From Candidatus Saccharimonadota bacterium (lineage in GTDB: Bacteria; Patescibacteriota; Gracilibacteria; Absconditabacterales; Absconditicoccaceae), in assembly GCA_000503875.1 (NCBI GenBank), contig CP006913.1, positions 60,001 to 92,000 of the forward strand: a DNA stretch of 32,000 nt. Direction: 5' to 3'. The translations under genes and the position numbers were made by a program. The notes beneath the pieces were generated by a model. It was not told the origin of the DNA and searched no databases. It saw only the letters and a program-made list of their open reading frames with translations. Below are positions 5,214-29,802 of the stretch, one piece after another; position 1 is the first letter of the stretch, and the number at the start of each line of letters is the position of its first letter.

Positions 5214-8200
5214 TTATTTTTTATATACTTCAAGGGCTTTGGTAAATTCATCAGCACCTGGAGGGAGTTGTTGTCGTAGTTCTGGACTATATTCAATAAG
5301 TACAGAAGCTCAATTAAAAATCATATTTCTTCTTTGTGTCTTAATACTATTTTCTCCTCAACTTACATAAAACCATTTTGATAGCGTAGATCTTTTATTA
5401 TTTACAAGATTTTCTATTCATCATCCAATAAGAACTCATTTAACATGAAGACCACCAGCATCACACCACTTTTTATTTAGGTCTTTATTTATGATAGAAT
5501 CAGCAGAAAAATTACTTGCTACAAAGATTCCTTTTACTGTTTGTGGTTTAGTACATGTACTATTTGAACTTTCATTAAATGAAATTGTTCAGTTTTGGAC
5601 AATAAACATACCGTTGACAGAAATATCTCCCTTGATTTCAAGATTTGCATCTTTTATAATCAGAGTGAAAGGTTTTGTTATATTTGTAGAGTTTTCTATA
5701 GTAATAGTAGTTCAATTACCTTTTCCATATAAGATATAAATATCCTTATTAGGTACTTTTTTCGCAGATGTTATTCAATCTCTTTCTAGGTTTTCTGGGT
5801 ATTTTGTAGTAGATACAGCTAGTTTTTCCATTCTATAAACAAAATTTTCAATCATTGGATTGATTACACCAAATCCGGCATATTCGCTTTCAGACAATAC
5901 CATTACACTAGCAAGATCAGTTTTGTTTACTAAAGGATCTCATTTTAACATTTCTTTAAAATTTTTGAGATCGATAGTTGTTGCTTTTGGTGTTATCCCA
6001 AAGGCACTCTTTTGTACAAGATATGGTTTGGTAATAGTGAAGTTAGTTTCACATGCATTTTGTAATTCTGTTTCTTCCCAATCACAACCATTCTCATCAC
6101 AAGCACAATATTCATAAGTTACTTTATCCAAACGAATTTTATGTTCTCCCAAAATATTTTCATCAAAAATTCTAGATGAAGCGAGTGTGTCAAAATTTAT
6201 ATAATAGTTTCCAAAAGCATTTCTCCAATACTCAGGATAAAAATTTTTGAAAAGTAAATCTTTGTCAAGTTGTGTATCAGAACAATCAATATTATTAAAT
6301 ATTTCTTCAGAATCTTCTCCAGGTTGTTGTAATGAGAATCAACATTTCATAGTAGATTTTTTAATTTTATTCTCATTATCTTCATCACATTTTGAAGAAG
6401 AAATAATATTGCTTGTATCATAAATTCTCCACCAGAAAGGCATAATTTCATTGTTTTGGACAGAGATATTAGCATTTCCTATAGAAAGACAAGATCCAGC
6501 AGGTTCATCAAGAGTACATCCTCTTTTACAACCATTTCCTTCTCATCTAGTTTCCCCTCAATCACATTGTTCATATCATTCTCTTTCTCCATTTCCACAA
6601 ATACCTACGAATCCTTCATCCAAAATAACATCATCGTCATCGCATTCAATTCAATTTATAGAACAGCTAATATTCATTTCATGTTCATCAAAATCATCTT
6701 CATCATATTTACATGTATATGTCATATGATCACCATTTTTACTATCTCCATCACCATTACCACAATCAATTTCAAGGGTAGCTTCAGAGTCCTCATTGTC
6801 TATAGAACATTCTACTTTTACTGTTCATTCTTCTTCATCAGCATCAAAAATAACAACATTAGATTCTAACCCTAATTCACAAGAAAGTACAGAACGTTTA
6901 CAAGCTTCATTAGTATTATCATTTCCTACAGTACAAGAAATTCTTGATCTTTCAGCTTCATTAGTATTATCATAGCTACATGTTGTAGAGAAGAAACCAA
7001 AAGGATCGGCAAATCAAGTCCCAGAATCTCAATTACCACAATCAATAGTTACAGGAGTAAATGTATTGGTATATTGACCAAGACATCTTGCAATAACTCT
7101 TGTAGAGCTGCTATTTTCAGGAGTTATATGCAAATCAACACAACTAGGATCTTTTAATGTGATAACAGCGTCGCTACAATCACCAGTTACACCATTAATT
7201 ACAACACAAGCTCTATTTGTTATACGTTTAGTGACTAAAGTACAAACATTTTGAATTTTTTCACAATCTTGATCTAGATTAGTAACTCCTTGTCCATCAA
7301 GTTCACATTCTTCATTTCTTGTTAATTCACCATCTCCACATACATAAGGTTCGTCTATAGTAAATGTTCTAGAAATTCAAGTATTATTGTAGGCTATTTC
7401 AATAGTAGGAGAAAGTGGAGTAAAATTTCTATAAGCAATACGTCCAGTAAGAGTAATTGATCCTTGTTGGTTAACTCAGATTGATAAGTTTTGATTATAT
7501 GTTTCAAAAGTAAGTGCTCAAGGATTTCTTACTGTAATGGTTGTGTTAGCTGGTACATTACCATTGTTTACATAAGAAATAGTAAATTGAATTAAATCCC
7601 CAGAAACAGCTTGAAGAGGGGAATTCAATAACGGCTTTGTTCGATTAAAAGCAGAAATAGTAAAAGCAATATTATCATACGCAGCCACTGTTCATGTAAT
7701 AAGAGAAATATCATTTCCTGTAGTTACTTGCGCTGAAGGAGTAGAAATACGAGCTTGACTAGAAAATTCTGTTCCAGCACTAAGAAATTGTCTGAGTGTT
7801 CAAGTTACTACAAGCATTCCCGTAGATCCTGCTGAAATTGATTTTCCTAGATTCCATTCTGTTTGAGTTGCTTCGATGCTAGATGGTAATGCAAAATTAA
7901 CCATAGGATTCCAAGCAGATGCAAATCAACTATTTCCATAAGTTATAATATAAGTAACGGTATCTCCCATTTTAAATCCACTAAACGGCAACATAATATG
8001 ATTAATATATACGTCAGCCAATCCTGGAAGGTCATTGGTAATTGCAAATTTATTGTTAGTAAGATCTAGATCTATCCCTGTAAAAGAAACTTCTCCAGAA
8101 AGACTAATACTCGTACCTTGCATAGGATAATCATTTAAAATCGAAGTATACGAAATAGTTTTTTCTTCGCCTCCAGCAAGCATTATTCCACTCAAAATAG

Positions 8201-9686
8201 TGGTTGTTTGTGAACTTTGATTTGCTGATGGATAGAGATTCAAAGTTATATTATTGGCTGTTTTTTCTCCTTTATTTGACAATTTAATATTGTAAGTAAG
8301 TGTTGTTCATTTATTTATAGTAACTAATTCATTAGTCAAATTTGCTTCTATAGCAACATCAGCACTTTTTACAAAGGTATAGCACAATCATGATAAGCTA
8401 TTATTATTTCACGTAGATGTTTCATTACTTGCACCAATAGTTCAAGAAAAACAAAATCTGGTTCCTATTGGATAATTTTGGTTTACTAATCACGTAACAA
8501 CCACAGTATTTATTGTTTCTGGCTCAAGGTCAGGAAGCGAAAATACAGTAGCAATTTGGTTAGTTCCACTAATAAGTGCAGTTAAAGAAACATTTTCGGC
8601 TCTTGCATTTCCTTTATTGGTATAGGTCATAGAATATCATAGTTCCTCTCCATTTGCCTCAGGTTCAGAGGAAATTTTTTGGAGATTTTCCAAGATAATA
8701 TCTATTACAGTTGGTAATGTATATGAAGTAACAGCAATATTATCAGAAAAGATTAATTCACGACCAGCTTGGATACTTCCAGTAGTAGTAATTACAGATC
8801 CAGCAGGAGGTGTTGATAATAATGGTGCAGCAAGTTTATATGCTTTGCTTGCTCCTGGAGCCAATGATCACAAATCCCAAGAGTAAATTCATTTACTTAC
8901 TTGTGAAGTAGTCAATTTGTCTTCCTGATAAGTGAGAATTGGTTCTCCCAAAAAATTTCCCAGAGCACTTGTAAGTTTTACAGCATCAGTACTTTCTTTA
9001 GATCCATTATTTGTTACAAGTATTTCATAAAGAGCTTGTTGTTGAGAAAATATTGGTTTAGGATCAATAATATTTTGTGTTATACTATAATTTGCGGTAG
9101 GAAGAATATAAGTAACGGGTTCATTTATACATGTAGAAGACCCAAAAGTTCTAAGACAAGCACTAGTTTCTATTCTATCAAATAATAAAGAAGAAGATAC
9201 AATTTCTCCTGTTACAATAATGTTTTTTGTTTCCGATACATTAATAAAATATTTTGGATTAATAAATCCATTTTGTAAAGCAATCAATCCTCAATTACTC
9301 AATCAATCTGAAGTAAGTTCAAGTATTCTTATTCTAGGATTATTATATGCGGGTGGTAATCTTAATTCAAAATATTTTGGGATAAGATTGTTTTGTATAG
9401 TAAATTTGAAAGTAACAATGCTTCCAGAAACAGCAAAAGAAGAAACAACTCTATTTTTTATAAGCGTATTATTTGCTAAACACGTAGTATTATGAGGAAT
9501 ACGAAGAGAATTTTTTGTACAAGAACAAAATCCATCAGGATTATTACAAGATTGGTATTCCTGACAAATAAAATTTCCCTCTGCATTTTGTGTACAATCG
9601 GTATATTCTAAGTCCTGCGCAAAAATTACTCCAGAAGCCAAGAGTCCAATAAGTACAGTAATACTACCAAAGATTTGTTTTTTCAT
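5214..9686 (-). CDS. Giant secreted surface protein, 1,490 aa: Cys-rich N-terminus, DUF11-like repeat region, Cys/Asp-rich modules with CGDG/CGNG...ECD repeats, unknown C-terminal domain
   Basis: I checked every codon of this frame from 5217 to 9686. There is no TAA or TAG, and there are more than 30 in-frame TGAs. It unites track ORFs 5940..6152, 7926..8282, 8637..8864, 8889..9287 and 9303..9725. The signal peptide is MKKQIFGSITVLIGLLASGVIFA-QD from ATG 9684-9686. DUF11-like strings such as GDLIQFTISYVNNGNVPANTTITV occur. Cys-rich repeats include CGDGELTRNEECELDG and CGNGEREGYEQCDGGETRGEGNGCKRGC. The stop is TAA at 5214-5216. Confidence 0.85.
6903..6973 (-). repeat. Exact 20-bp direct repeat (AGCTTCATTAGTATTATCAT, offset 51 bp) inside the giant surface-protein gene
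   Basis: The copies lie at 6903-6922 and 6954-6973. They encode two adjacent 17-aa units, each containing DNTNEA flanked by Cys (CSYDNTNEAERSRIS / CTVGNDNTNEACKRSVLS). Confidence 0.8.
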
Positions 9687-9709
9687 TCGTATATGAAATA
9701 GGTAAAGGT

Positions 9710-11563
9710 TTATTTGATGGTTCATTTAATTGTTATAGTTTTTTCTTCGAATCCTTGTAAACCACTTATTTCCCAAACAAGAACAGGACGTTCATTGATA
9801 TTTCTTGGAGCAGGATCTGAGTTCAGAAACCTCAAAGAATCTGGCCAAAAATCCTTAATTATAAAAGGTCCAACAGCTGTTGATCATAGATTTCTATAAG
9901 TAATGCTATATTCAACTTCATCTCCAGGTCCATAACCAAACGTAGTAACTTTCTTTTCGATATCTATTCACGCCATTGATTGTACAATAGAAACGCTAGC
10001 ACTTGTTGGTATTTGCTTATCTCCTCCAGCGTCTGTGTAATAAATTTTTCCTGTATTACTATATGTCTTTCCTGCACAACTTGGATTAGTACTTGCCTGT
10101 CCAGAAAAATTTATAATAAATGTTTGATTTGCTGGTAATCATCATAGAGGCCAATCTGTCAAAGTTCCATTTGAATTTGGTGTTACAGAAGGTGTTGATT
10201 GAGAACTTCCTGTTACAAAAGAGAAACAATCTGGCCACATATCTTGTACGCGAACATTGGTAATAGTACTCGTTGTACCATTATTAACTCTGATAGTAAA
10301 ACCAACTGTTTGTCATAATTGAACACTACTTGGAGTAGCTGTTTTGGAAATAGTTACCTCACCGCCAACAGAACATAGTACTTGTTCGTTTGTATATCAA
10401 TTAAGAGGTGTTCAGTTACTTATTGCTGACCAGAATGCATGATTTCGTCCGTCATTACAAGAATTAAATTTTGCGGTAATACGTATATATCCGTTTTGTC
10501 CTGCAGATAAGCTAAATCATGTATAGAGAACTACAAAATTTCAGCTTGCATTAGAACCAGTTTTGAAATAAGTAGGTCAAGTAACTCATACAATTTCACT
10601 AGAAATATATTCAAATCCACTTGGAAGAAAATAATCTTCAATAGCAATATTTTGTACTGTTTGTGTTGATGGGTTTGAGATATTTATTCTAAATTCAACA
10701 GTATCTCATGGGGTATGTAATTGAGAATTAACAAGAATTTTATCAACTACAAGACTTCCCGTTTCTGTCCCACTTCAAATTCCTGTACAATCAGTTTTAC
10801 ATTTTCCTGCTTGTCCATTTTGTGCTCAATCATCGCAGACTTCATTTGGTTTAATCGAATTTCCATGCCAAAGCAAAAATATTCATCATTGAGTTGTGAT
10901 TCATCAATTTCCATCACTTGTTCCTGTTTGTTTATCAATCACACCATCACCACATCTTGCTACATAATAATTAGTACAAGATATTTTTTTGGTAATGCTT
11001 GGATTTATTATTACGTTTAATGTTCCATTATGAAGAGAAAGGTCATTAGCTCTTATATAATAATAATTTAATAAGACGCCATTTGCATTTTGGACAATAG
11101 ATCTTTCGTTGTTAAATGTTACAAATTGTCCTGCAGCTTGATTTCTTGTTGTATTTGCAGATCATAATAAAGTGGCTCCAGTAGCGTCAACAGTCAATAT
11201 ATTAGAACTATCTGAATCTATGGTTGTAGATGGTACAAAATTGGAAACGTAAGGAAATTTAATATTACCAACAAAAGTAGATTGATTATATCCTCTTACG
11301 TACGTTTCTGTTTTATCAAAAACATAGCTTACAGGTCATTTTGGTTGACCAACACGAAGATATACAGGAGATCAACTATAAAAAGCTAGATCTTGGGTTA
11401 TATCACAAGTTCAATTGTAAATAGTTGTTTCTCGGTTTAATGTTCTGTTTTCGTTTGAACTACTTGGAACATCACCAATTACATTACTAGCAAATGTTAT
11501 GTTAGTTAATCAAACTATCATACTTATAATTAATATTGCTTTGTAATAATTTGTCTTTATCAT
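9710..11563 (-). CDS. Secreted protein, 617 aa: N-terminal unknown domain, CGDG...CDDG Cys-rich module, three DUF11-like repeats
   Basis: The frame was checked codon by codon from 9713 to 11560. It has no TAA or TAG and many TGAs, so the standard-code track shows no ORF in this frame at all. The signal peptide is MIKTNYYKAILIISMIVGLTNITFA-SN. The Cys-rich module is YYVARCGDGVIDK...NEVCDDGAQNGQAGKCKTDC. The DUF11-like repeats are LVVDKILVNSQLHTPGDTVEFRINISNPSTQTVQNIAIEDYFLPSGFEYIS, VTISKTATPSSVQLGQTVGFTIRVNNGTTSTITNVRVQDMWPDCFSFV and IDIEKKVTTFGYGPGDEVEYSITYRNLGSTAVGPFIIKDFWPDSLRFL. The stop is TAA at 9710-9712. Confidence 0.85.
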
Positions 11564-11592: not shown

Positions 11593-12672
11593 TTAGTTAA
11601 TAAATACTTCGACAAATGCTTCAGTAAACGTTGGAAGACAAATACTACTACAGAAATGAAAACTTGGATCGTCTCCATTTATCATTCAGTCAGTATCATT
11701 TTCTGTGTCTCCATCATCACATTCTTCAAAACTCATATCATTTGTATCACCATTATAATAAGTTCCAGCTGGCTGTAAAGTTTCATCTCCACATTTCTCT
11801 TTTGATCAGCCAAATCAACTACATGTAGCATTACAGCATCCAAGCGTTCCATTTACACAAGCTGCGCCAGTTTCTGTATTGGAATCACATTTTTCTGCTG
11901 TAAAACCTGTATTTGTCCATACAACAAATCATTGAGCTGTTTGTATTCCTTGTTTTCCATTTGTACTATTTCATCATTCTTTATTCGGATCATCAATTAC
12001 TTTGTCTCAACAAGTTGCCACATAAAAGTTCATACAAATAGTATTTTTAGGTGATGGATTAAATGCGCTGTTGATTTTATAGTTCCAAAGATGCACTCCA
12101 TTGTTTTCATCAAACCATTTGTAAGAAGAGGTTGTCTGTGCTGTTTTGGAGCCTATTTGTTGTTTTGAAATTTGAGCATTTATTTGTGCACTTACTCAAG
12201 TTCTAGTCATTCATCCTGTAGTAGTATACATAGCAGCAAACTGTCTTGCAAATTTTACTTTACTTACTCCTTCTGGTTTTACATTTGAAATATACATAAA
12301 ATTTGGAATAAGTTGGTTAGCTTCGGTTGCAGTAGGGGATGAAGATAGTACTCCATAAGGATTCCAAAGATATATTTTGCTAATATATGGCATATTTTCT
12401 GGTGTATCTGCAATAGGTACTCCAGCAGTTGTTGGATGATTATTGAGATATCGATCTGAAGATTCTCCATCTTTAACAAGGATTCCATATGATATACTTT
12501 GTCCAATATAATGTGCAAGATTTTTATTTTCCTGACATTGTTGAGAAAGTGTATCGCTTATATGTTGATCTACAGGATTATAAGCAAAAACACGAGAAAA
12601 ACCGAAGGTTAAGCTCATGAGTATAACACTATATCACAATATATTTCTAGTCTTTCATATTAAATATTTCAT
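11593..12672 (-). CDS. Secreted Cys-rich protein, 359 aa, paralogous in its central module to the 9710..11563 product
   Basis: Track ORF 12211..12618 extends upstream through two TGAs to ATG 12670-12672, giving MKYLIGKTRNILGYSVILMSLTFGFSRVFA-YN. It extends downstream through multiple TGAs to TAA at 11593-11595, and I checked that frame codon by codon. It contains NFYVATCGDKVIDD..., CVNGTLGCCNATC and FEECDDGDTENDTDG...FCSSIC. Confidence 0.8.
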
Positions 12673-12718: not shown

Positions 12719-15700
12719 TTATTTTTTCTTTTTCTTTCTCAAATCTTCATTTCATGTTCCTACACCTGTTCAGAAAGATTTAGTTCAGCTTAATGGAGCA
12801 TTTCCATTTCATGGAATTAGTTCGTTAGTAATATCTCCTCATACAGGGATTTCTGTTCCTGTAAAGATAATATTTTCTGTATTTCCGTTCAAAAATTCTT
12901 GGAAAGCAGCCAGGTCATCTGGAATAAATATAGTTTGATTTCCATTTCCATCAATACGTGTATACGACAACCCATCTTCATTTAGCACAAATTGATCTTC
13001 TGGTTGTACCTCAAGTGTGATATCTTTTTCTTCTACAACTTCAGTAGTTACTTTATCTTCTTTTGGTTTTTGTTTTACAAAAGTAAAACTTACTTCTCTA
13101 GTGGCTTTTTGTGCCATATTTGCTCTATTAAGTGTTCCTGTGGTATTGGTTCGAAGTCAAACCATCGGTGGCATAACAGATATTGTTTCATCTATAGGCT
13201 TAGTATTTTTTTCTGTAATTTCAATATTTTCTGGTACAAATCCTATGGATTCATTTGCACATTCTTTGAGTAAATAGAATGTTCGATCTACGTTCAACTT
13301 AATAGTATATATTTTATTATTAATGTCAATAGTAACTTCATTCGGAATCTTATTGGATTTGTTATCTAATGTATATTCAAAAAGAGATTTTATTTTTGTT
13401 CGATTAAGTTTATCAAACAGATTTTGAGGAAGAGTAGGATTGGTCTTCAACATAGCATTGAGCGTATTCTTAAATATTTGTTGTTCTTGTATATTTTTTT
13501 CAAAGTTTGATAAAAACCAATCTCTAGGACGTGTGTCGTTTTCATTTATCTTGGACATATATGTTTTATTTGTTTTTAATACATTGGTATATCCTGGCAA
13601 AGTCATTGATCGATTTTTCGCTTCTTGGTTTGCTCCATTTCTATATCGTGCAGTATATCCAAATATTGGTGCATCTGTCGGTATATCGAAAGGAGTGTGC
13701 TTGTTATCAATAAATTGTTGTCTGAGAGCGTCAATACCGATTTCAGTTGGTACCTTTGAAGATGGACCACTAATTGTCTTTCGTCTATCACCACGTCATG
13801 TTAAAGTATTTACAATATCTCTATGATTATTAAATTTTCCATCATAATTATCTGCAAAAACACTCTTCACATGGTTTACGATTTGCGTTTTTTCCAAAGA
13901 AGTTCATGAAAAAAGTTTAGTTTTCAATGTTGTAATATCTGCGTTGATAGTATAATTTGGTATTTTTTCCAAAAGTTTTATCAAACTTATAGCTGTTTGA
14001 TCTATATTTCTAGAACTAATTCCACTTGCCAAGAAATTTTCAAAATCCATATCCTTTGGATTATCAAGTTTTTTTAATTCAGATTTTATATTTGTTATAG
14101 ACTGTTCAAATGACGTAGTAAGTCTATTGACTGCCTTTATCTCGTATTTACTAACAATATTTGCTTGTTCTTTATAGATAAGTGTATGTTCTCCATTTGT
14201 TGCGTCAGAAAGTGTTTTGGTATATGGAGAAACACTTCCATCTATAGTTACTGTTGTGCGCAAAGGAATATCTGTCAAATCTGCTATAGCGATATTGTTC
14301 TTATCATAGTAAGTAATTTTATTGTTTTGTACCACTACTTTTTCTATAGGAAATAATGAATATTTGTTTTTGAGCGTTGTAATTTTATTATTTAAAGATT
14401 TTTGAATATCAAGAGTCTGATCTGCCAATTCTTTATCTCATAACCAATCTTTTGGAACAGCTCTTCCAATCTTCAATTGAAGATCTTCTTTTTCTGTTTT
14501 CACATCACCAATATTGAGAACATGAATATTGTCTGTTCCTTGTTTTCTTTGCATATGACGAATTGCTATAGATACGGGAATTTGAATAGCTTTTTCATTG
14601 GTCCCTTCTTGAGTAACCTCTTTCAAATATCCTTTTAATGCAGGGTCTATATTGATATTAATATTTCCTTTTTGATACAATGCCTTTGGTAAGATAAAAT
14701 ATTTTCCATCAGAAGACAAAGAAATATTATACTTATTAATAAGTGTTGTTTCGCTATTTACAATTTTTTCTACCTTATCAATAGTTAATGCCTTATTGAG
14801 ATAATCAACAGTACCTTGATGGTTTTCAATATTCTTAAATTCATTTCAAAATCCAGTAGTTTCAGCCATATTATTGCGTTGAATACTTTCTTGGGTATCT
14901 TTGAAATATAAGTTCTTGTATTTTGCTATTTGAACACAAACTGTTGGTATAGGGTAGTATCAAGCCAAAAATTGAACTCACAATGAAGCATTACTAAAAT
15001 GCCAGCGATTGAGTCCCAAAATTTGTTCGTTAGTTCGATTAGTTACATAAAAGTCAGCAACTAATGATGAAAAATGACCAATATTTTCTTGAATACTTTT
15101 ACGATCATTATCGGTAAATCCAAAATAAGTTAGAGCTGTATACATATTATTAGCTGCTTTTTCTATAGTTTCTATATCAGAATTTCCAAATTGTTTTTGA
15201 AGAATTCTTTTAAAAAGTTTGATACTATCAGATTTGCTTCCATCCAATTGATCATAATTTTTGATAAATTCTTGTATTATTGGTTTTACTCAACTTCTTA
15301 TATATTCAGATTGTTCTTCGATTCCTCTCATTTTATCAACACCAAATCCAGCGGTAATTCAAATAGCAGGAATTATACCTCCAATAAGAGTAAGATTTGG
15401 TCCTAATGATACTTTTTTAGCAGAAGAAGCATCAAGGTTTTTCTTATTTTTATTGGTAATCCATTTTTCTGCTCAACCACCAATACTTGCAACAGGTATA
15501 AATCCATTTACAAGCCCCAAAGATGCTCCTGTATATATTGCTGTATTTTCGTCCAAATTAAAATTCTTGTTTCGCGCAAGATGTACACCAAGAACAGAAG
15601 GCGTATCACCTACAAAACCAGTTCCCACATTGATGCTAAGTCCTTGAAGAAGATTATCCAAAGAAACACGAACTCCCGCACCTAATCATTGTTGTTTTGC

Positions 15701-17890
15701 TTGAATCAACGGTGTTGCTATAGCTTGGAAAAGCCCTTCTTTGATGATAGGATCCACATCATATTGTTGTAACTGGTCATCAATATAGGCATGGATTGTT
15801 TTTTTATCTTGATCATTTAAATCATCGATCATTTCTGAATAATGTTTAAACGCATTATTTCATTGTGTCAAAAGAAGATCAGTATCAAGCGGTGATTCCA
15901 AAAGTACTGTTTGTATAAATTTAACAAATCCAGGATCTCTAAATTCGCCAATAAAACTATCAAGCTTTGTAGAATAATCAGCTTGGCTTCCAATTGTATT
16001 TAATATTTTTGCATAATTTTTGAAATTTTTTGTATTTGCATGACTTGTTGCAACATTAATCAGATTTGAGAGAACATTTTCTTCTCAAACTTCATCTATA
16101 GCAGTAGCATAATATGAACGTAATTGTAATCCTGTTCTTACCGCACCATCACCAAAATCAATTCTACCATCTCTATTGAGATCAGTAAGTATATTTACAA
16201 ATTTGTTTTGTTTTTCTTCTAGAGTACCAACTTCTTTTGATGCTTCATAGGTATGTTTAGCATTGGCATATTGTTCGATATTTGTTCCAAGGCGGGTTGC
16301 ATTGAAAAAATGGAGAAATGCTGCTTTTCCATCCGATAATTCATCTATTCCTATATCGCCTGATAGCACTTCATATAAATGATTTTTCTTGCCATCATTA
16401 TCCATAGCTGGTTCTAATTGTTCTACAAGGAAAGTAATAAATTTAGCTTCTTCACCTCTACCTTTCATTACTTCATCTTCATATCATTCTGATCTACTTT
16501 CTTCTACTCTTTTCATATTACTTTCAATTACTTTATTTATATTTAGTTTTTCATTTCGTCTAGACAATTCTTTTGCTGCTTTTTTATCCAAAGATCTAGA
16601 TGTTTTTTCAAGAATATCAAAAGCTTTTCCATGAGTATTTAATGTTCTTTGAAACATATTTCTATTTTCTTTTGCTAATCATGATTCTTTTCTAGATTTA
16701 GCATTATTAATTGTATTATAGATTTCTACAAAGGTAGTATTTGGATTTTTGATAAATTCCTCGGTGAAAAGTTTGATTACACGAGAAAAATATGGATAAT
16801 CATTTGATGGTTTCATAGCGGTAGTAAATAGAACACCAAGTTTAGCTATATTTTCTTCTTCCCCTGATCGGTCAGCATCTGGTCATTGTTGAAAATATAT
16901 TTTTTTAACCTCTTTGATGGCATCTCCAAATGAGTCTAATCAGATATCGGTAATTGTTTTTCTTAGTTCTTTTAGGAGTTTTTTTTCTGATCCTGTAGGT
17001 TTAAAGTTTTGATCAACGAGAAGTAAAGATGCTTCCTTTCCAGAAAGAATTTTTTTGAGAGCTCTTTTGTCTGGTGTATTTTCTGGTAGATCTCAGTCAT
17101 CTTCATCTATATCAAGATAAGATTCTCCTTTATAAAGAATAACATCATTGATAGGGTTGTATATTTTTTCATTAGTTTTTTTGTCTGTGTAATATTGTTG
17201 AATATTTTTATCTAACGCATCAAACAAATTAGTATTGTTAGAATTATTTTCTACAAGTTTATCCTTGTTGTTTGTTTTATTATTTAAATCGTCATCCTTT
17301 TTTAGTCCAGCATTTATTCCTGCTCAATGATATCGACCGTATCACGCAAGATTACCGTCTGTGCTATTATTTGAATTAGAAACAGCACCAAGAACTTCAT
17401 CTTTTAAATAGTTAAGTTCCAATTTGGAAAGATCTATAACGGTCTCTGTTTCAGCAGATATTGTTTCTCTAAAAGCTTCGAAAACTGTTTTAAAAGAGCC
17501 AATTGCATTTGATAAATCTAAATTGTGTTTATATTCTTCTATTTTTTGAGGATTTTGAATGTCTTGTAAAAATCATTTAAACAATGTTTCTATTGCAGAT
17601 TTTTTTTCTTCCTTACTGCTTTGTCCATTTAAAATATCTTTTATAATGTCTTTTTTTTCTATCATATATGCATCAAAAAGCGTATCTGTTATCGTATCCA
17701 AAGATTTAATTTTATCAGAAATTTTAGCATCAAGGTTTTTATCCTTAAACTTTTCGTCAAAGTGAATATTATCGACGGATTGTCCTTTGTCCTTATCCCC
17801 GATAATCTTCTTTAACCAGTCAAGTTCCTGTCTAGTGTTGCCAGTTTCTCTTGAAGGGAGATATTCATTGGCTGAGTAAGTGGTTCCCAT
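12719..17890 (-). CDS. Giant orphan protein, about 1,723 aa, no recognisable signal peptide or known domain
   Basis: Track ORFs 12839..13117, 13157..13606, 13904..14428, 14438..14719, 14978..15247, 15473..15661, 16085..16468 and 17573..17965 all share one frame. I checked every gap between them, and they contain only TGA, never TAA or TAG. A frame open for about 1,700 codons in AT-rich DNA is not expected by chance. The start is placed at ATG 17888-17890 (MGTTYSANEY...). In-frame alternatives are ATG near 17938 and TTG at 17965. The stop is TAA at 12719-12721, after a KKKKK tail. Confidence 0.8.
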
Positions 17891-18045
17891 AATGCGTTGT
17901 ATAAATAAATAGAATATACTAAATCGTAATTGAAACATTGCACATAAAACTTGTGCGGTATACAAATCTAATAATACTCTAAAACAAAAAAACAGCTAAA
18001 AAAACCCAAAAATTCTATAAAATGATAAACCATTTTTTAAAAAAA

Positions 18046-18053
18046 ATTATACA
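18046..18053 (-). promoter_or_regulatory. Candidate extended -10 promoter (TGTATAAT) for the giant-gene unit
   Basis: The complement of 18046-18053 reads TGTATAAT, a perfect TGnTATAAT. It lies in the A-tract-rich divergent intergenic region, about 155 nt upstream of ATG 17890. Confidence 0.4.
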
Positions 18054-18092
18054 ATATCAAAAACAACAAACAAAAAAATACGAAAAACAATC

Positions 18093-18120
18093 TTGACTTT
18101 ATTGTTTAGATTGTTATAAG
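18093..18120 (+). promoter_or_regulatory. Candidate sigma70-type promoter for the 18155..19665 gene pair
   Basis: TTGACT (18093-18098), a 16-nt spacer that includes TG at 18112-18113, then TATAAG (18115-18120). It lies 35 nt upstream of ATG 18155. Confidence 0.5.
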
Positions 18121-18154: not shown

Positions 18155-19165
18155 ATGGTGAAAAAAACTTTGGGAAAAAGTATCTTATTTGTTACGATGA
18201 TAGGGCTTATTTTCTGATGAATAACCAAAGCTGATACAACAATCAAAACGTTTTTTGGTATGTCATGTGAGATTACAAGAATACCTGTTTCTTGAATCTC
18301 CGCAAAAACAATATTTGATCCAAGTCAGTATACAGATGAATTAGCGGCTCTTACTAAAAAATGATACAATAGAATTGATCTTATAAAAGAATTTGTTAAT
18401 GGGGATCAAATGATCAAAGTATTGTTGGGAGAAAAATGTAATCTCCCTGTGTTGAGGATTAATCAAGAAGAATCCGTTAATGATATTTGAATTGATCATA
18501 TTGAAAAAAGAGGAAACAGTTTATTAATGTATGGTGCCAAAGATTGATATGCAACATTGATTGCATGTGATTTAGCTACATTGAAATGAAATTCATACAA
18601 ACCTTTTGACGCCGAGAAACAATCAGTTTCTATAATTTCAACTCCCACTGTAGATTCGACATCATCAACAACAATCCAACAATGAACAAAAGATTTCGAT
18701 AGCAAAACATCGCAATTGTTACAAACACCGTTAGTGTTGGAAAAAAAGAATGTTCATCCTCAGGATGCTTTTCTTTTAATGAAGCAACCAGTATCAAAAA
18801 TAATTACATTTTTTGGAGGGAACTGGAAGCGTGACAGAAAAATATTAGCTGAAACATTAAATATAGCAAATTATATATGAACAAAAGAACAAAATCTTCA
18901 GATTAGAAGCTATCTACTTTCTTATATAACTATTCAATTTGAGGCAATAGAAACTACGGAAATTGAGCTATCGGTACAAGAATACCAGTCAGCTCAACAA
19001 AAAGTTGTTTCTGATCTTGCCAAAATGCGAGGATATACACGAAAGTATGACAGGCGAGTTCTTTTTCAAGAAATAGGCGAAGATATTTCTTCGTATAAAT
19101 GAACAAGAAATCAAAACATAAAAATAAGAAACTATTTATTAACAAAAACCAAAACTAAAAATTAA
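18155..19165 (+). CDS. Hypothetical secreted or membrane-anchored protein, 336 aa
   Basis: The plus frame was checked line by line. It has 10 in-frame TGAs and no TAA or TAG until 19163-19165, so the standard-code track shows no plus-strand ORF here. The N-terminus is MVKKTLGKSILFVTMIGLIFGGITKA-DT (signal or anchor). I recognised no domain. Confidence 0.75.
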
Positions 19166-19170
19166 ACTAT

Positions 19171-19665
19171 ATGTCAACATCAATCATTTATGATCAAGGG
19201 AGCTCAAAAGATATGATCCCTTTTGTTGGTCTTTTCGCTGATAAGGAAGAAGTACGCAAAAAACTTCTTGAAATATGTGAATTAGATTCTGCGCTGGATA
19301 CTACTGCAAAAATTCCTGCAGTAAACAATCCAACATTTGTCTTTATTTCTGGAAATTCTAGATTTGAAGATTCAAAATATTTGAAGAAATTTTACAATGA
19401 TCTTCTTGAATTAATCAAGGATCAATGGGTAAAGGCAGATCAAAATCTGATTTTGGTAGTGATATTGGAATATTTTAATTCAGGATCGGGTAAAACAATA
19501 GGAGATCTTTTTACTGAATTAAATAACTTTTTTGGAAACCGCTTCCATATAGTATGGTTAGCGGATGATGAGAATTATGTAGGCGCTGGAGAGGATTATA
19601 AAGAAATCTTAGAGAAAGAATCTTTTTTAATCGAAGAGGTTATTATAAAGCCAAAGAAAAAATAA
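19171..19665 (+). CDS. SiaC/DUF1987-like protein with an N-terminal extension of about 50 aa, 164 aa
   Basis: Intact track ORF with no TGA, starting 5 nt after the upstream stop. The pattern FVFISGNSRFEDSKYLKKFYNDLLELI...LILVVILEYFNSGSGKTIGDLFTEL...HIVWLADDENYVGAGEDYKEIL...FLIEE matches my recollection of the DUF1987 consensus (I.G.S.PE..FY.P...W....L.YFNTSS.K......L....V.W.Y..D.D....GE.F....F). The family assignment is from memory, not from a search. Confidence 0.8.
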   Translation: MSTSIIYDQGSSKDMIPFVGLFADKEEVRKKLLEICELDSALDTTAKIPAVNNPTFVFISGNSRFEDSKYLKKFYNDLLELIKDQWVKADQNLILVVILEYFNSGSGKTIGDLFTELNNFFGNRFHIVWLADDENYVGAGEDYKEILEKESFLIEEVIIKPKKK

Positions 19666-28383: not shown

Positions 28384-28971
28384 ATGAAGAAACTAATGTA
28401 TTTGGTTTCCACATTGATTATAATCAGTTTGGTAACCCCTGTTTTTGCACAGGTAGAAGCAACAGACACCACAGGATGGGCTACTGCAATTAATTGGTCT
28501 AACAATTCAAAAAGAGACCTAAAGAAGCAAGTTAGCAAAAAAATGAACGAAGAATTAAAGAAGTACGCTGAAAAGTGGACTAAAGAATTCCTTGATCAAC
28601 CTAGGAAAACGGCCATTGAAAAAGTAGCAATTGATTTAAAAATCATTGCCGAACAATTCCATAAATTATATGCTGCAGCCTCAGCTGCATATATATTAGG
28701 AAAAAAGGGTTACTTCCAGAAGGAAGAAGTTGAGCCATTTCCTTTCGATCCTCGAGAAGAAGTTGATAAAGAAAATTATCTTATCGGCGAATTCTTATAC
28801 GAAGAGAGAGAAGGTTTGCGCTATTATATTAGCCAAGGGAATAGAGGTCTTTCAAACTACCTCGATGCCCCATCTTACTTAGTGACGGGAAATCGTAAAG
28901 TCAAAGGTGGTCAACAGATCATCAATGAATACGCAGCCCAGATCGTAAGAAGGTGGGAAAATGCTTATTAG
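28384..28971 (+). CDS. Hypothetical secreted protein, 195 aa
   Basis: Intact track ORF with no TGA. The signal peptide is MKKLMYLVSTLIIISLVTPVFA-QVEA. It is followed by a GC-rich hairpin terminator. I recognised no domain. Confidence 0.8.
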   Translation: MKKLMYLVSTLIIISLVTPVFAQVEATDTTGWATAINWSNNSKRDLKKQVSKKMNEELKKYAEKWTKEFLDQPRKTAIEKVAIDLKIIAEQFHKLYAAASAAYILGKKGYFQKEEVEPFPFDPREEVDKENYLIGEFLYEEREGLRYYISQGNRGLSNYLDAPSYLVTGNRKVKGGQQIINEYAAQIVRRWENAY

Positions 28972-29025: not shown

Positions 29026-29802
29026 CTAAAATTTTTTCATTCCATCTTCATATCACATATCAAAAATAGTTTTCATTTTCTTTTTATTAGTACTCAAAAC
29101 AGGAATATCTAAATCTCTATAAAATAAATTATCTACCAAATCAAATTTTTCACTATCTCTAGCTCTCATCAATATTTCATAACTCAATGAAAGATTATCA
29201 AGAATCGAAGCTGTTTTTTGATTTTCTATAAATTTATTGAGAAATATTCAAATAATATGATTAGATGGATGGTCTTTCTTTGCTAGGTCTACAGGAAAAT
29301 TGTTGATAAGACCTCCATCCATCAGTGTATTTCATTCAAACGAAATTGGCGGAAAGACGCCCGGAATAGACATACTTCCAAGGAGAGGAATAATCAGATT
29401 GTCTTTTTTATAAAGTATATATTTACCCTTATTACAATCTGTCACTCCAATAGCCAAAGGAATTGTTAATTCTCAAAAACTTTTGGGTAAGTCTTCTACA
29501 AAGATTTTGTGTATAAAGTCATTTTTTAATAGGCTTTTTTTGGAAAGGAGATTTAGTGTTTTGAATCCAAAAAGTGATGTTTTAGAAAATCTTTCAAAGA
29601 TCCAATCCGCAGAATATCCAGCACTTCGATAAGCGCCCAAAATGGCTCCTGCACTAACGCCATAGAGCATAGAAATATTTTTTTTCATACCACGTTCTTC
29701 TAGTGCTTTCAAAATTCCTAATGCATAAAATCATCTTACTCCGCCTCAAGAAATAACCAAGGTATAACGTTTTTTTCAAAATAATTTATGAAGAAGGTGC
29801 AT
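29026..29802 (-). CDS. Patatin-like phospholipase, 258 aa
   Basis: Track ORF 29473..29712 was extended in both directions. The oxyanion motif is VIS-G-GGVR-G-FYALG, with both flanking Gly encoded by TGA (29746-29748 and 29731-29733). The nucleophile elbow is G-V-S-A-G-A. The catalytic Asp motif is LMDGGLINNFPV. The start is ATG 29800-29802. The stop is TAG at 29026-29028. Confidence 0.88.

What the first reader, a model, noticed from the sequence alone, without database searches (positions are those of the whole stretch)
12719..17890. 1,723-aa orphan protein with no signal peptide, poorly represented in standard-code annotation
The frame is open with respect to TAA/TAG for about 5.2 kb in AT-rich DNA, and I checked every gap between the eight track fragments. 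It contains many UGA-Gly codons. I recognised no catalytic or structural domain. The sequence is Lys/Asn/Asp/Glu-rich with long predicted helical stretches, has an internal Gly-rich hydrophobic core, and ends in GTGVGTGNEDLRKKKKK. Standard pipelines would report eight or more unrelated small ORFs here. It heads the surface-protein unit, so it may be a scaffold, a secretion substrate of a non-Sec route, or an effector.
Basis: partly seen in the sequence, partly recalled or inferred. Interest (0 to 1): 0.7.

Follow-up and report, generated by a model that had tools for sequence, protein, structure and literature searches.

The report
Giant recoded partner of surface adhesins
A real 1,723-residue gene, hidden from standard annotation because UGA encodes glycine here, belongs to an unnamed family of giant signal-peptide-less proteins that always sit next to secreted adhesin genes in tiny parasitic bacteria and carry a predicted porin-like array of membrane-type beta-hairpins.

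Summary
TGA is Gly (code 25). Four orthologs (51-80% identity) are full length and free of TAA/TAG, with dN/dS about 0.19.

It is not a strict orphan. An exhaustive HMMER search finds about 50 clusters, many of 1,300-2,140 aa. None carries a name or a Pfam, NCBIfam or PDB match. Every member whose DNA I read uses TGA as a sense codon.

Every member lacks a signal peptide. Each is followed on the same strand by a signal-peptide gene that, wherever it is complete, is a Cys-rich DUF11/CLIPPER fibrillar-adhesin gene. The window has three such genes; distant members have one fused gene.

A 37-sequence AlphaFold model (pLDDT 78) shows helical domains around long beta-hairpins. The hairpins are duplicated, Gly-rich, strictly amphipathic and uncharged except at the turns. 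Foldseek gives only weak matches, mostly outer-membrane-type barrels.

Best reading (about 0.45): a membrane-inserting beta-hairpin or barrel partner (anchor, conduit or pore) of the adhesin fibre in a lineage whose cultivated relative has a single membrane. Export route and target membrane are unknown.

The parts
12719..17890 (-). Giant CDS: 1,723 aa plus TAA stop, 26 in-frame TGA (=Gly), no signal peptide, 2 Cys
   Evidence: Open frame and start. Full-length orthologs at 80/51/51/51% identity. dN/dS 0.19-0.31, and below 0.4 in every 150-codon window of the shared body; 0.38-0.46 only in the last ~20 codons. TGA aligns with Gly.
16148..16183 (-). EF-hand/dockerin-like loop DLNRDGRIDFGD (aa 570-581) between two predicted helices. 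D570 and D581 are invariant in 23 family members
   Evidence: Invariant columns. Family alignment. The 12-residue EF-loop pattern matches in the 5 close orthologs only, and the full PROSITE pattern is not met. Helix-loop-helix in the model.
15335..15688 (-). Gly-rich amphipathic beta-hairpin array, strands b1-b7 (aa 735-852; hairpins A, B, C)
   Evidence: AF2 strands. Strict aliphatic / Gly-Ser-Asn alternation, invariant G739/758/768/788/844/848 and P799, no charge inside strands. Hairpin repeat homology: B vs C P=3e-4, A vs C P=0.004.
15008..15334 (-). Helical insertion between strands b7 and b8 (aa 853-961); starts with the conserved GIExQY motif
   Evidence: AF2 helices with pLDDT about 80-93. 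Family alignment.
14897..15001 (-). Fourth hairpin (D), strands b8-b9 (aa 964-998): HFSNASLGVQFLAGYYPIPTVCVQIAKYKNLYFKD
   Evidence: AF2. hhalign against hairpin B gives P=1.4e-5, probability 80%. Best-conserved 50-aa block of the family.
13082..13309 (-). C-terminal long strands b10-b13 (aa 1528-1603), including the family-invariant motif LL.ECANES.G (C1544, N1546; nt 13247-13264)
   Evidence: AF2 strands of 14-26 residues, pLDDT about 80-88. Invariant C and N in 23 members.
12722..12853 (-). Gly-rich low-complexity tail ending in RKKKKK (aa 1680-1723). A Gly/Asp/Asn-rich tail occurs in most relatives examined; the basic end occurs only in the closer ones
   Evidence: Tails listed. Highest dN/dS of the gene. 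No RTX GGxGxD repeat.
17891..18110 (-). Conserved non-coding upstream region: palindrome-containing block, extended -10-like TGTATAAT, then a ~110-nt conserved leader
   Evidence: A 5-locus DNA alignment has long invariant blocks although dS between the subgroups exceeds 1.2. Indels and a TAG rule out coding. No Rfam hit. No covariation. The motifs occur only at this orthologous site.
11593..12672 (-). Partner 1: 359-aa secreted Cys-rich protein (signal peptide, 3.3% Cys), 46 nt downstream of the giant gene
   Evidence: Ortholog in all 5 close loci. Its N-terminal domain is homologous to the N-termini of partner 2 and of the fused L006 partner.
9710..11563 (-). Partner 2: 617-aa secreted protein with 3 DUF11/CLIPPER repeats and an RrgB-type isopeptide fimbrial domain
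   Evidence: Pfam DUF11 at 1e-27. NCBIfam TIGR01451 and TIGR04226, 40.4 bits against a cut-off of 30. No LPXTG or C-terminal anchor.
5214..9686 (-). Partner 3: 1,490-aa secreted Cys-rich DUF11/CLIPPER protein with a conserved C-terminal domain of unknown function (the ORF's first ATG is 9725; the likely start is 9686, MKKQIFG...)
   Evidence: Pfam. Homologous at 27-37% identity to the single large partner next to distant giants in L006, L012 and L014. No minus-strand terminator between the four genes; gaps of 46/29/23 nt.

Best explanation
The ORF is a real protein-coding gene of a code-25 (UGA = Gly) Gracilibacteria/Absconditabacteria-type bacterium. It belongs to an unnamed family of giant (about 1,450-2,150 aa), Cys-poor proteins without signal peptides, so far seen only with TGA used as a sense codon.

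The family is the constant first gene of a conserved module. The following gene or genes encode Sec-exported, Cys-rich DUF11/CLIPPER fibrillar-adhesin proteins that have no cell anchor of their own.

The conserved core of the giant protein is an array of at least four duplicated beta-hairpins, joined by four or five long C-terminal strands. Large aliphatic residues alternate with Gly/Ser/Asn, and charge is confined to the turns.

Proposed mechanism (inferred): this array forms a porin-like beta-sheet or barrel that embeds in a membrane, while the helical domains and the Lys-rich loops stay on one side. The giant protein would then be the membrane-embedded partner of the adhesin fibre at the contact with a host or prey cell. 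It could act as an anchor or base, a conduit, or a pore inserted into the prey envelope.

Shown: gene reality, genetic code, family, synteny, hairpin repeats, amphipathic pattern.
Inferred: membrane insertion, physical coupling to the adhesins, export by a non-Sec route.

My confidence by layer: real gene above 0.97; functional coupling to the adhesin genes about 0.85; membrane-inserting beta-hairpin/barrel mechanism about 0.45.
For: Real gene:
- Open frame with chance probability about 1e-48.
- Four full-length orthologs without TAA/TAG.
- dN/dS 0.19 for close pairs, and below 0.4 in every 150-codon window of the shared body.

Code 25:
- TGA on invariant Gly of DnaK, FtsK and the histidine kinase.
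- 259 of 328 TGA pairs align with GGN or TGA, none with TGG.
- Across subfamilies TGA aligns with Gly 38% of the time against a 7% background.

Family:
- Exhaustive HMMER finds 50 clusters at E<=1e-3 and 31 at E<=1e-10.
- All 13 relatives whose DNA I decoded read through with 13-121 sense TGA.

Module:
- Giant gene plus signal-peptide partner on the same strand in every locus whose contig extends past the giant gene. L008 ends at the giant gene and is uninformative.
- Partners next to giants only 24-27% identical to the target are still homologous to the window's 1,503-aa protein.
- No terminator and gaps of 23-46 nt.
- Partners lack LPXTG or a C-terminal anchor.
- CLIPPER domains are stalks of fibrillar adhesins that normally carry an anchor (PMC12617251).

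Beta-hairpin core:
- AF2 with 37 sequences: pLDDT 78, pTM 0.57, strands of 12-26 residues.
- Family columns show dyad alternation, invariant glycines, zero charge in strand interiors and K/D/E at turns.
- Hairpins are homologous repeats: P=1.4e-5 and 3e-4, against P>=0.0085 for control pairs.
- Foldseek's best local matches are outer-membrane-type barrels: KdgM TM-score 0.45, designed TM barrel 0.51, FhaC, BamA, and a cyanophage OMP-like barrel at probability 0.97.

Lineage biology: the cultivated code-25 relative Vampirococcus is an epibiotic predator with a single membrane, a fibrous envelope and giant DUF11 membrane proteins (PMC8080830).
Against: - No Foldseek match is significant (best E 0.18-0.29). 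I could not inspect coordinates, so barrel closure and a hydrophobic belt are unverified.
- The model was built on an ortholog 51% identical to the target, whose database sequence has Trp at 16 Gly (TGA) positions.
- The C-terminal strands are more polar (22-27% charged) than typical transmembrane strands.
- Seven strands precede the helical insertion. That odd number complicates a simple topology with all soluble domains on one side.
- There is no signal peptide, no alpha-helical TM segment and no secretion gene beside it in the window. How the protein would reach a membrane from outside is unknown.
- Transmembrane beta-barrels are not known in cytoplasmic membranes.
- The very low Cys content fits a cytoplasmic protein equally well.
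- There is no expression or localisation data for any member.
Confidence: 0.45

Rival explanations
1. Soluble scaffold or assembly factor. The giant protein never enters a membrane. The Gly-rich hairpins form the buried core of a large soluble beta-sandwich or barrel wrapped by the helical domains. The protein acts in the cytoplasm or at the inner face of the membrane, as a chaperone, organiser or regulator for making and exporting the co-transcribed adhesins.
For: - No signal peptide in any member, and no alpha-helical TM segment.
- Cys 0.1% against 1.6-3.4% in the exported partners.
- pTM 0.57 suggests one compact multi-domain body.
- GFP-like soluble barrels also appear in the weak Foldseek list.
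- No secretion genes adjacent in the window.
Against: - The non-aliphatic face of the strands is Gly/Ser/Asn with essentially no charge across sequences only about 20% identical. That is atypical for a solvent-exposed sheet face.
- Outer-membrane-type barrels have much higher Foldseek probabilities (0.4-0.97) than the GFP-type hits (about 0.06).
- The EF-hand/dockerin-like Ca loop suggests an extracytoplasmic setting, though only weakly.
Confidence: 0.3
2. Free prey-directed pore-forming toxin or effector. The protein is released (by lysis, a holin or another non-Sec route) and acts on the prey membrane independently of the adhesins. On this reading the gene linkage reflects only co-regulation of a predation regulon.
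For: - Giant size, no signal peptide and a central Gly-rich amphipathic hairpin block recall beta-pore-forming toxins and the delivery region of large clostridial toxins (my own knowledge of those families; hairpin data).
- A basic C-terminal tail is conserved among the closer orthologs.
- Relatives are predators that disrupt the prey envelope (PMC8080830).
Against: - No Pfam match to any toxin, pore or enzymatic domain in 23 members.
- No structural match to aerolysin, haemolysin or MACPF folds.
- The strict conservation of gene order with adhesins, down to a fused single partner, argues for a physical partnership.
- At least four hairpins per chain differs from the one or two per protomer of known beta-PFTs.
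Confidence: 0.12
3. Phage or mobile-element structural protein, for example a tape-measure-like protein: long, helical, with a Gly-rich hydrophobic middle and no signal peptide.
For: Only a superficial resemblance in length and composition.
Against: - No PHROGs hit in 5 members, and BFVD gives nothing significant.
- Neighbours are chromosomal housekeeping genes: FtsK, GatA, DnaK and PPDK in the window, and ribosomal operons in L012 and L014.
- No phage genes in any of the 14 loci.
- The chromosomal position is stably conserved among orthologs.
Confidence: 0.02
4. Not a functional gene: a chance open frame, a pseudogene or an assembly artefact.
For: None beyond the absence of known domains.
Against: - Chance probability about 1e-48.
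- Conserved length in independent assemblies from different samples.
- dN/dS 0.19.
- Conserved upstream region.
Confidence: 0.01

Closest known systems
Giant membrane/surface proteins of code-25 epibiotic predators (Vampirococcus lugosii; Moreira et al. 2021, PMC8080830)
   Same: Same kind of organism (UGA = Gly, reduced genome). Same size class (above 1,390 aa). Genomic association with DUF11 adhesion proteins. Presumed role at the fibrous host-contact envelope.
   Different: Those proteins were assigned recognisable interaction domains (WD40, PKD, DUF11, integrin, fibronectin) and a membrane location. This family has no known domain and no signal peptide, and its core is a beta-hairpin array. 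I could not test whether Vampirococcus encodes a member.
Outer-membrane beta-barrel proteins (porins such as KdgM and OmpA; Omp85/TpsB transporters such as FhaC and BamA)
   Same: Long antiparallel meander of amphipathic, Gly-rich strands with short turns on one side. Built from duplicated beta-beta hairpins. These are the best, though weak, structural neighbours. The TpsB/TpsA analogy holds loosely: a barrel protein encoded next to a large Sec-exported adhesin-type exoprotein.
   Different: No signal peptide and no terminal aromatic beta-signal. The strands are split into three segments inside 1,700 aa of other domains. The cultivated relative is monoderm. No significant sequence or structure match.
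Beta-pore-forming toxins and large Sec-independent toxins (alpha-haemolysin/aerolysin stems; TcdA/TcdB delivery region)
   Same: A soluble protein carrying Gly/Ser-rich amphipathic hairpins flanked by large domains. Giant size and lack of a signal peptide, as in large clostridial toxins (my own knowledge of those families).
   Different: No Pfam or fold match to any of them. No enzymatic or receptor-binding repeat domains. At least four hairpins per chain. Obligate linkage to adhesin genes.
Type I-secreted RTX adhesins and toxins
   Same: Giant, acidic, almost Cys-free, no N-terminal signal peptide, Gly-rich C-terminal region.
   Different: No GGxGxD nonapeptide in any of 11 members and no RTX-repeat family among the Pfam matches. 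No ABC transporter or membrane-fusion protein gene adjacent. The cultivated relative has no outer membrane.
CLIPPER/DUF11 fibrillar adhesins (PMC12617251)
   Same: The three downstream partner proteins are of this kind: signal peptide, CLIPPER stalk repeats, isopeptide-type fimbrial domain.
   Different: The giant protein itself has no CLIPPER domain. The partners lack the sorting or anchoring domain usual for such adhesins, which the giant protein may supply in trans (inference).

Membership tests
Genetic code 25 (UGA = Gly; Gracilibacteria/Absconditabacteria lineages) | In-frame TGA at positions where homologs have Gly, not Trp or a stop | tested here: met
   DnaK, FtsK and histidine-kinase invariant Gly sites. 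259 of 328 TGA pairs align with GGN/TGA and 0 with TGG. 38% Gly against a 7% background across subfamilies.
Genetic code 25 (UGA = Gly; Gracilibacteria/Absconditabacteria lineages) | tRNA-Gly with anticodon UCA in the genome | not testable with these tools
   No tRNA gene in the window or in the five ortholog-group loci scanned. The rest of the genome is not available.
Outer-membrane beta-barrel proteins | N-terminal Sec signal peptide | tested here: not met
   Polar N-terminus in the target and 10 relatives; maximum Kyte-Doolittle hydropathy (10-residue window) in the first 40 aa is -0.3 to 1.7.
Outer-membrane beta-barrel proteins | Amphipathic antiparallel strands of at least 10 residues with an aliphatic / small-polar dyad repeat | tested here: met
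   Strands b3-b9 are 12-18 residues. Their 180-degree (period-2) hydrophobic moment is about 0.3-1.1, and above 2 for the short strands b1-b2. It exceeds the 100-degree (helical) moment for most strands but not for b5, b8 or b9. Strand interiors are uncharged.
Outer-membrane beta-barrel proteins | Significant sequence or structure similarity to a known barrel family | tested here: not met
   No Pfam, NCBIfam or PDB-sequence hit. Foldseek best E 0.18-0.29, TM-scores up to 0.51 normalised to the target.
Outer-membrane beta-barrel proteins | Closed barrel with a hydrophobic belt; producer has an outer membrane and BAM | not testable with these tools
The cultivated relative Vampirococcus has a single membrane. 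The genome of this organism is not available.
Beta-pore-forming toxins | Known PFT fold or domain (aerolysin, leukocidin/haemolysin, MACPF/CDC, anthrax-PA type) | tested here: not met
   No Pfam match in 23 members. No such fold among the Foldseek hits.
RTX / type I secretion substrates | Tandem GGxGxD nonapeptide repeats near the C-terminus | tested here: not met
   0 matches in 11 members. No RTX-repeat family among the Pfam matches.
RTX / type I secretion substrates | Adjacent ABC transporter and membrane-fusion protein genes | tested here: not met
   None in the window or in any of the 14 loci.
EF-hand / dockerin-type Ca-binding loop | D-x-[DNS]-x-[DENSTG]-G-x-[ILV]-x-x-x-[DE] loop between two helices | tested here: inconclusive
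   The 12-residue pattern is met in the target and 4 close orthologs. Position 13 of PROSITE PS00018 is not met. Distant members keep D1, G6 and D12 only. The flanking helices are predicted. Ca binding is untested.
CLIPPER/DUF11 fibrillar adhesins | Signal peptide plus CLIPPER stalk repeats | tested here: not met
   Not met by the giant protein. Met by the downstream partners at 9710-11563 and 5214-9686.
Phage tape-measure or other phage structural proteins | PHROG/Pfam match and a phage gene neighbourhood | tested here: not met
   No PHROG hit. Housekeeping neighbours.

The most novel reading that the evidence does not exclude
A previously unrecognised class of envelope machine in monoderm, UGA-recoded CPR epibionts. 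A giant polypeptide without a signal peptide contributes a single-chain, porin-like beta-barrel built from duplicated Gly-rich hairpins. The barrel either spans the producer's only membrane or is planted in the prey's outer membrane. In both cases it is coupled to an isopeptide-stabilised adhesin fibre encoded downstream, forming the physical anchor or conduit through which these 'vampire' bacteria hold and tap their hosts. Either location would be without precedent: a beta-barrel in a cytoplasmic membrane, or a Sec-independent, fibre-tethered barrel delivered into another cell.
Probability: 0.2. Interest if true: 0.85.

Novelty: new variant of a known kind. Interest (0 to 1): 0.55.

Why it matters
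How Gracilibacteria/Absconditabacteria-type episymbionts attach to other cells and extract material from them is unknown. No communication bridge has been seen, and most of their giant envelope proteins are unannotated (PMC8080830).

This work turns a gene that standard pipelines shatter into about 27 pieces into a defined, testable candidate:
- a conserved two-component module (giant beta-hairpin protein plus CLIPPER adhesin), present across divergent members whose genes all use TGA as a sense codon
- mapped motifs: hairpins at aa 735-998, the ECANES turn, an EF-hand-like loop
- a usable structural model

There is also a practical warning. In the large protein collections searched here, this family was stored either with Trp at every UGA-Gly codon (code 4) or as code-11 fragments. 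That degrades homology search and structure prediction for the whole lineage.

Tried and rejected
- Translating the + strand at the given coordinates gave 48 TAA/TAG stops. The gene is on the minus strand.
- The alternative upstream start (ATG 17938) and the N-terminal extensions called in P0003 and L005 were rejected. The upstream region is conserved as DNA, with indels and a TAG, not as protein.
- Pfam, NCBIfam and PDB-sequence searches with the single protein, and Pfam and PDB again with 23 family members, found nothing above noise.
- PHROGs found nothing.
- PADLOC gave one weak Cas7 hit (E 7.7e-4) in one member only. I treat it as chance.
- Self-BLAST found no internal repeats. Only profile-profile comparison revealed the hairpin repeats.
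- The search for homologous proteins with the full-family profile and with a compact core profile returned only the close orthologs or a few fragments. Its 8,000-candidate word prefilter saturates on this Lys/Asn-rich protein.
- AlphaFold with a 3-sequence alignment failed, at pLDDT 39.
- Rfam and RNAalifold on the conserved leader gave no family, -3 kcal/mol and no covariation.
- A tRNA scan for tRNA-Gly(UCA) found none in the window or in the five ortholog-group loci scanned.
- A regex search found no RTX repeats.
- A type IV secretion link was considered because of the basic C-terminal tail. The Patescibacteria T4SS paper gives no connection, and no T4SS genes are nearby.
- Cluster look-up found no source name for any member.

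Full report
**1. The observation**

The window (32% G+C) is recoded throughout. With TAA and TAG as the only stops it resolves into long genes that carry many in-frame TGA codons. With the standard code it resolves only into short fragments.

The reported feature lies on the minus strand. The + strand frame over 12719-17890 contains 48 TAA/TAG. The minus strand is open from 17995 to 12719. From ATG 17890 (MGTTYSANEY...) to TAA 12719-12721 the product is 1,723 aa with 26 TGA codons.

This frame has one TAA/TAG, its own stop. The other two frames of that strand have 92 and 122. The chance of such an opening at this base composition is about 1e-48.

Under code 11 the frame splits into 27 pieces, 7 of them at least 100 aa long.

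**2. Genetic code**

TGA falls on invariant glycines of neighbouring housekeeping proteins: DnaK GIDL-G-TTNS, the FtsK Walker A AGAT-G-SGKS, and the histidine-kinase G-box.

Within the gene and its three closest orthologs, TGA aligns with GGN or TGA in 259 of 328 pairs and never with TGG. Across distant subfamilies TGA aligns with Gly 38% of the time against a 7% background, while TGG aligns with Trp or Phe. This is code 25. No tRNA gene is present in the window to confirm it independently.

**3. It is a real gene under selection**

The indexed protein search returned three full-length relatives of 1,703-1,738 aa at 80%, 51% and 51% identity. A scan of GTDB species representatives returned one more (L005, 51%). 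Its record is labelled 'Candidatus Peribacteria', but the locus clearly uses TGA as a sense codon.

None is interrupted by TAA/TAG. Nei-Gojobori dN/dS computed under code 25 is 0.19 for the two close pairs and 0.25-0.31 for the distant pairs, where dS is saturating. Every 150-codon window of the shared body is below 0.4. Only the last ~20 codons reach 0.38-0.46.

**4. Not a strict orphan**

Pfam, NCBIfam and PDB sequences give nothing. An exhaustive HMMER search of 1.84 billion cluster representatives, using a profile of the best-conserved ~1,190 residues, found 50 proteins at E<=1e-3 and 31 at E<=1e-10. About twenty of these are 1,300-2,140 aa long. The rest are short pieces that look like standard-code fragments.

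None of the 23 long members examined has a credible Pfam domain (one marginal DUF3848 hit in a single member). None of the 10 clusters looked up carries a name from any source. PHROGs, PADLOC and a family profile against PDB were also empty.

I decoded 13 relatives from their DNA. All read through under code 25, with 13-121 sense TGA codons. The stored database sequences had Trp at those positions, meaning they were called with code 4.

**5. A conserved gene module**

In the window the giant gene is followed on the same strand by three genes, at gaps of 46, 29 and 23 nt and with no terminator-like site between them:
- a 359-aa Cys-rich protein
- a 617-aa protein with three DUF11/CLIPPER repeats and an RrgB-type isopeptide fimbrial domain
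- a 1,490-aa Cys-rich CLIPPER protein with a conserved C-terminal domain of unknown function

All three have signal peptides. The same order holds in all five orthologous loci.

Next to distant family members (24-27% identical giants) the downstream gene is one large signal-peptide protein of 1,511-1,781 aa. It is homologous to the window's partners and in L006 visibly combines all three. The shorter contigs L007, L009, L010, L011 and L013 all show a downstream signal-peptide gene cut by the contig end.

Giants have 0.1-0.5% Cys and partners 1.6-3.4%. CLIPPER domains are stalks of exported fibrillar adhesins that normally also carry a sorting or anchoring domain (PMC12617251). These partners have neither LPXTG nor a C-terminal hydrophobic anchor.

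The surrounding genes are housekeeping: FtsK, GatA, DnaK and PPDK in the window, and ribosomal operons in L012 and L014. The module is therefore chromosomal, not phage or plasmid cargo. In one sub-branch (L008, L013) a prepilin peptidase gene lies immediately upstream.

**6. Anatomy of the protein**

AlphaFold with three sequences was useless, at pLDDT 39. A second job used 37 family members, with an ortholog fragment equivalent to target aa 540-1620 as the query. It reached pLDDT 78 and pTM 0.57.

Mapped to the target, the model shows:
- helices at aa 541-725, containing an EF-hand/dockerin-like loop DLNRDGRIDFGD (570-581; D570 and D581 are invariant in 23 members)
- seven strands at 737-852
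- a helical insertion at 853-961
- two strands at 964-998
- small beta domains at 1064-1250
- a helical domain at 1260-1510
- four or five long strands at 1528-1603, around the family-invariant turn LL.ECANES.G

The first 540 residues were not modelled at useful confidence.

In the family alignment made from correctly decoded sequences, the strands at 735-852 and 964-998 alternate strictly between L/I/V/F and G/S/N/T. Glycines G739, G758, G768, G788, G844, G848 and G971, and P799, are invariant. Strand interiors carry essentially no charge, and Lys/Asp/Glu cluster at the turns.

Profile-profile comparison shows that the hairpins are homologous repeats. Hairpin B vs D gives P=1.4e-5, B vs C gives 3e-4 and A vs C gives 0.004. 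The helix-helix control gave P about 0.009, and comparisons between hairpins and other blocks gave P>=0.013.

Foldseek finds no significant neighbour in PDB or BFVD (best E 0.18-0.29). Among the weak matches, those with the highest Foldseek probabilities are outer-membrane-type barrels: KdgM, chitoporin, BtuB, FhaC, BamA, a designed transmembrane barrel and phage 'OMP-like beta-barrel' proteins. Target-normalised TM-scores reach 0.45-0.51 and probabilities up to 0.97.

**7. Interpretation**

Firmly shown:
- a genuine, selected gene read with UGA = Gly
- membership of a lineage-restricted, unannotated family
- obligate synteny with Sec-exported CLIPPER adhesin genes
- a duplicated, Gly-rich amphipathic beta-hairpin core

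Inferred: the hairpin array plus the C-terminal strands form a porin-like sheet or barrel that embeds in a membrane, making the giant protein the membrane-embedded partner (anchor, conduit or pore) of an adhesin fibre that lacks its own anchor. This fits the biology of the one well-described code-25 relative. Vampirococcus is an epibiotic predator with a single membrane, a thick fibrous envelope and giant DUF11-containing membrane proteins. No bridge to its prey has been observed (PMC8080830).

Weaknesses:
- All structural matches are non-significant.
- I could not inspect coordinates.
- The query sequence used for the model carried 16 Trp-for-Gly errors.
- The C-terminal strands are fairly polar.
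- The odd number of strands before the helical insertion complicates a simple topology.
- There is no signal peptide, no helical TM segment and no adjacent secretion system.

The main rival is a soluble cytoplasmic scaffold or assembly factor whose hairpins form a buried core. A free pore-forming toxin is a weaker rival. Phage-protein and non-gene readings are effectively excluded.

**8. Comparison with known systems**

The protein resembles outer-membrane barrels and Omp85/TpsB transporters in strand chemistry and hairpin duplication. With its Sec-exported adhesin partner it loosely resembles two-partner secretion. It fails their defining tests: no signal peptide, no significant similarity, and a presumably monoderm producer.

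It resembles beta-pore-forming toxins and large clostridial toxins in carrying amphipathic hairpins inside a large Sec-independent protein, but it has none of their folds or domains. It resembles RTX substrates in being giant, acidic, Cys-free and Gly-rich at the C-terminus, but it has no RTX repeats and no transporter genes. I therefore do not file it under any of these.

**9. Verdict**

The gene is not an orphan but the founding example, in this window, of an unnamed family.

Novelty: a new variant within the known theme of giant envelope or host-contact proteins of CPR episymbionts. I give about 20% chance that it is something categorically new, namely a single-chain porin-like barrel machine in or from a monoderm. 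Interest 0.55.

Noticed in passing
window 17891-18110 (minus strand); L001 5530-5749, L003 3018-3237, L004 1908-2127, L005 9755-9976: The roughly 200 nt upstream of the giant gene are far better conserved than synonymous sites (dS above 1.2 between subgroups). They contain a block AATAAAGTCAAGAT with an AACAAT..ATTGTT palindrome, an extended -10-like TGTATAAT, and a ~110-nt leader with invariant runs (AAAAATGGTTT, GAGTATTATT, TTTGTATAC). It is not coding (indels, and a TAG in the window). There is no Rfam family and no covariation. The motifs occur only at this site in the 14 loci. It is probably a promoter/operator plus 5' UTR shared with the divergent SiaC-side genes.
   Followed up: partly
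window 11593-12672, 9710-11563, 5214-9686; L006 5292-9827; L012 14449-19113; L014 15600-20945: The three downstream adhesin genes of the window correspond to one fused gene of 1,511-1,781 aa beside distant family members. The 359-aa and 617-aa proteins share a paralogous N-terminal domain followed by CGDG-type Cys-rich repeats. The C-terminal ~550 aa of the largest partner is conserved (27-37% identity) and matches no known family.
   Followed up: partly
L008 318-1148 and L013 9008-9871: In one sub-branch of the family, a type IV prepilin peptidase gene (A24_N_bact) lies immediately upstream of the giant gene on the same strand. This hints at a link to type IV pilus or pseudopilus machinery.
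   Followed up: no
window 19171-19665 (+) and 18155-19165 (+): A SiaC-family regulatory phosphoprotein gene (PF09345, E 4e-12) is divergently oriented to the giant gene in all five orthologous loci. In the window and L001, a 336-aa signal-peptide protein of unknown function is inserted between them, and its stop overlaps the SiaC start region.
   Followed up: no
database proteins P0001-P0061; L011 1299-7727; L014 10001-20945: The stored protein sequences of this family were called with code 4 (Trp at every TGA) or as short code-11 fragments. P0001 carries 34 wrong residues. The giant in L011 has 98 sense TGA codons, and the L014 giant and its partner have 121 each. The word-indexed homology search also saturates on these Lys/Asn-rich proteins and misses most of the family.
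   Followed up: yes
L005 (CAZUIS010000002.1): This MAG is labelled 'uncultured Candidatus Peribacteria bacterium' (Peregrinibacteriota). Every long gene in the locus nevertheless needs TGA as a sense codon (10-67 per gene), so the taxonomic label or the assumed code of that record deserves a check.
   Followed up: partly
window 5214-9725: The first ATG of the largest partner ORF (9725) adds 13 residues (MNHQINLYLFHIR) in front of a typical signal peptide. The likely true start is ATG 9686 (MKKQIFGSITVLIG...), as in the orthologs in L001 and L003.
   Followed up: yes
L008 1274-7159 (P0009), C-terminus: Unlike the Gly-rich tails of other members, this member ends in a hydrophobic, TM-helix-like stretch (…MILLAPLFLVMVTILLEV…). 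It could be a genuine membrane anchor in that sub-branch or a frameshift near the contig end.
   Followed up: no
window 29026-29802 (-) and 28384-28971 (+): Other possible host-interaction genes lie nearby: a 258-aa protein whose sequence looks patatin-like (my reading of the GxGxxG / GxSxG-type motifs; not scanned against Pfam) and a 195-aa signal-peptide protein without any Pfam match.
   Followed up: no
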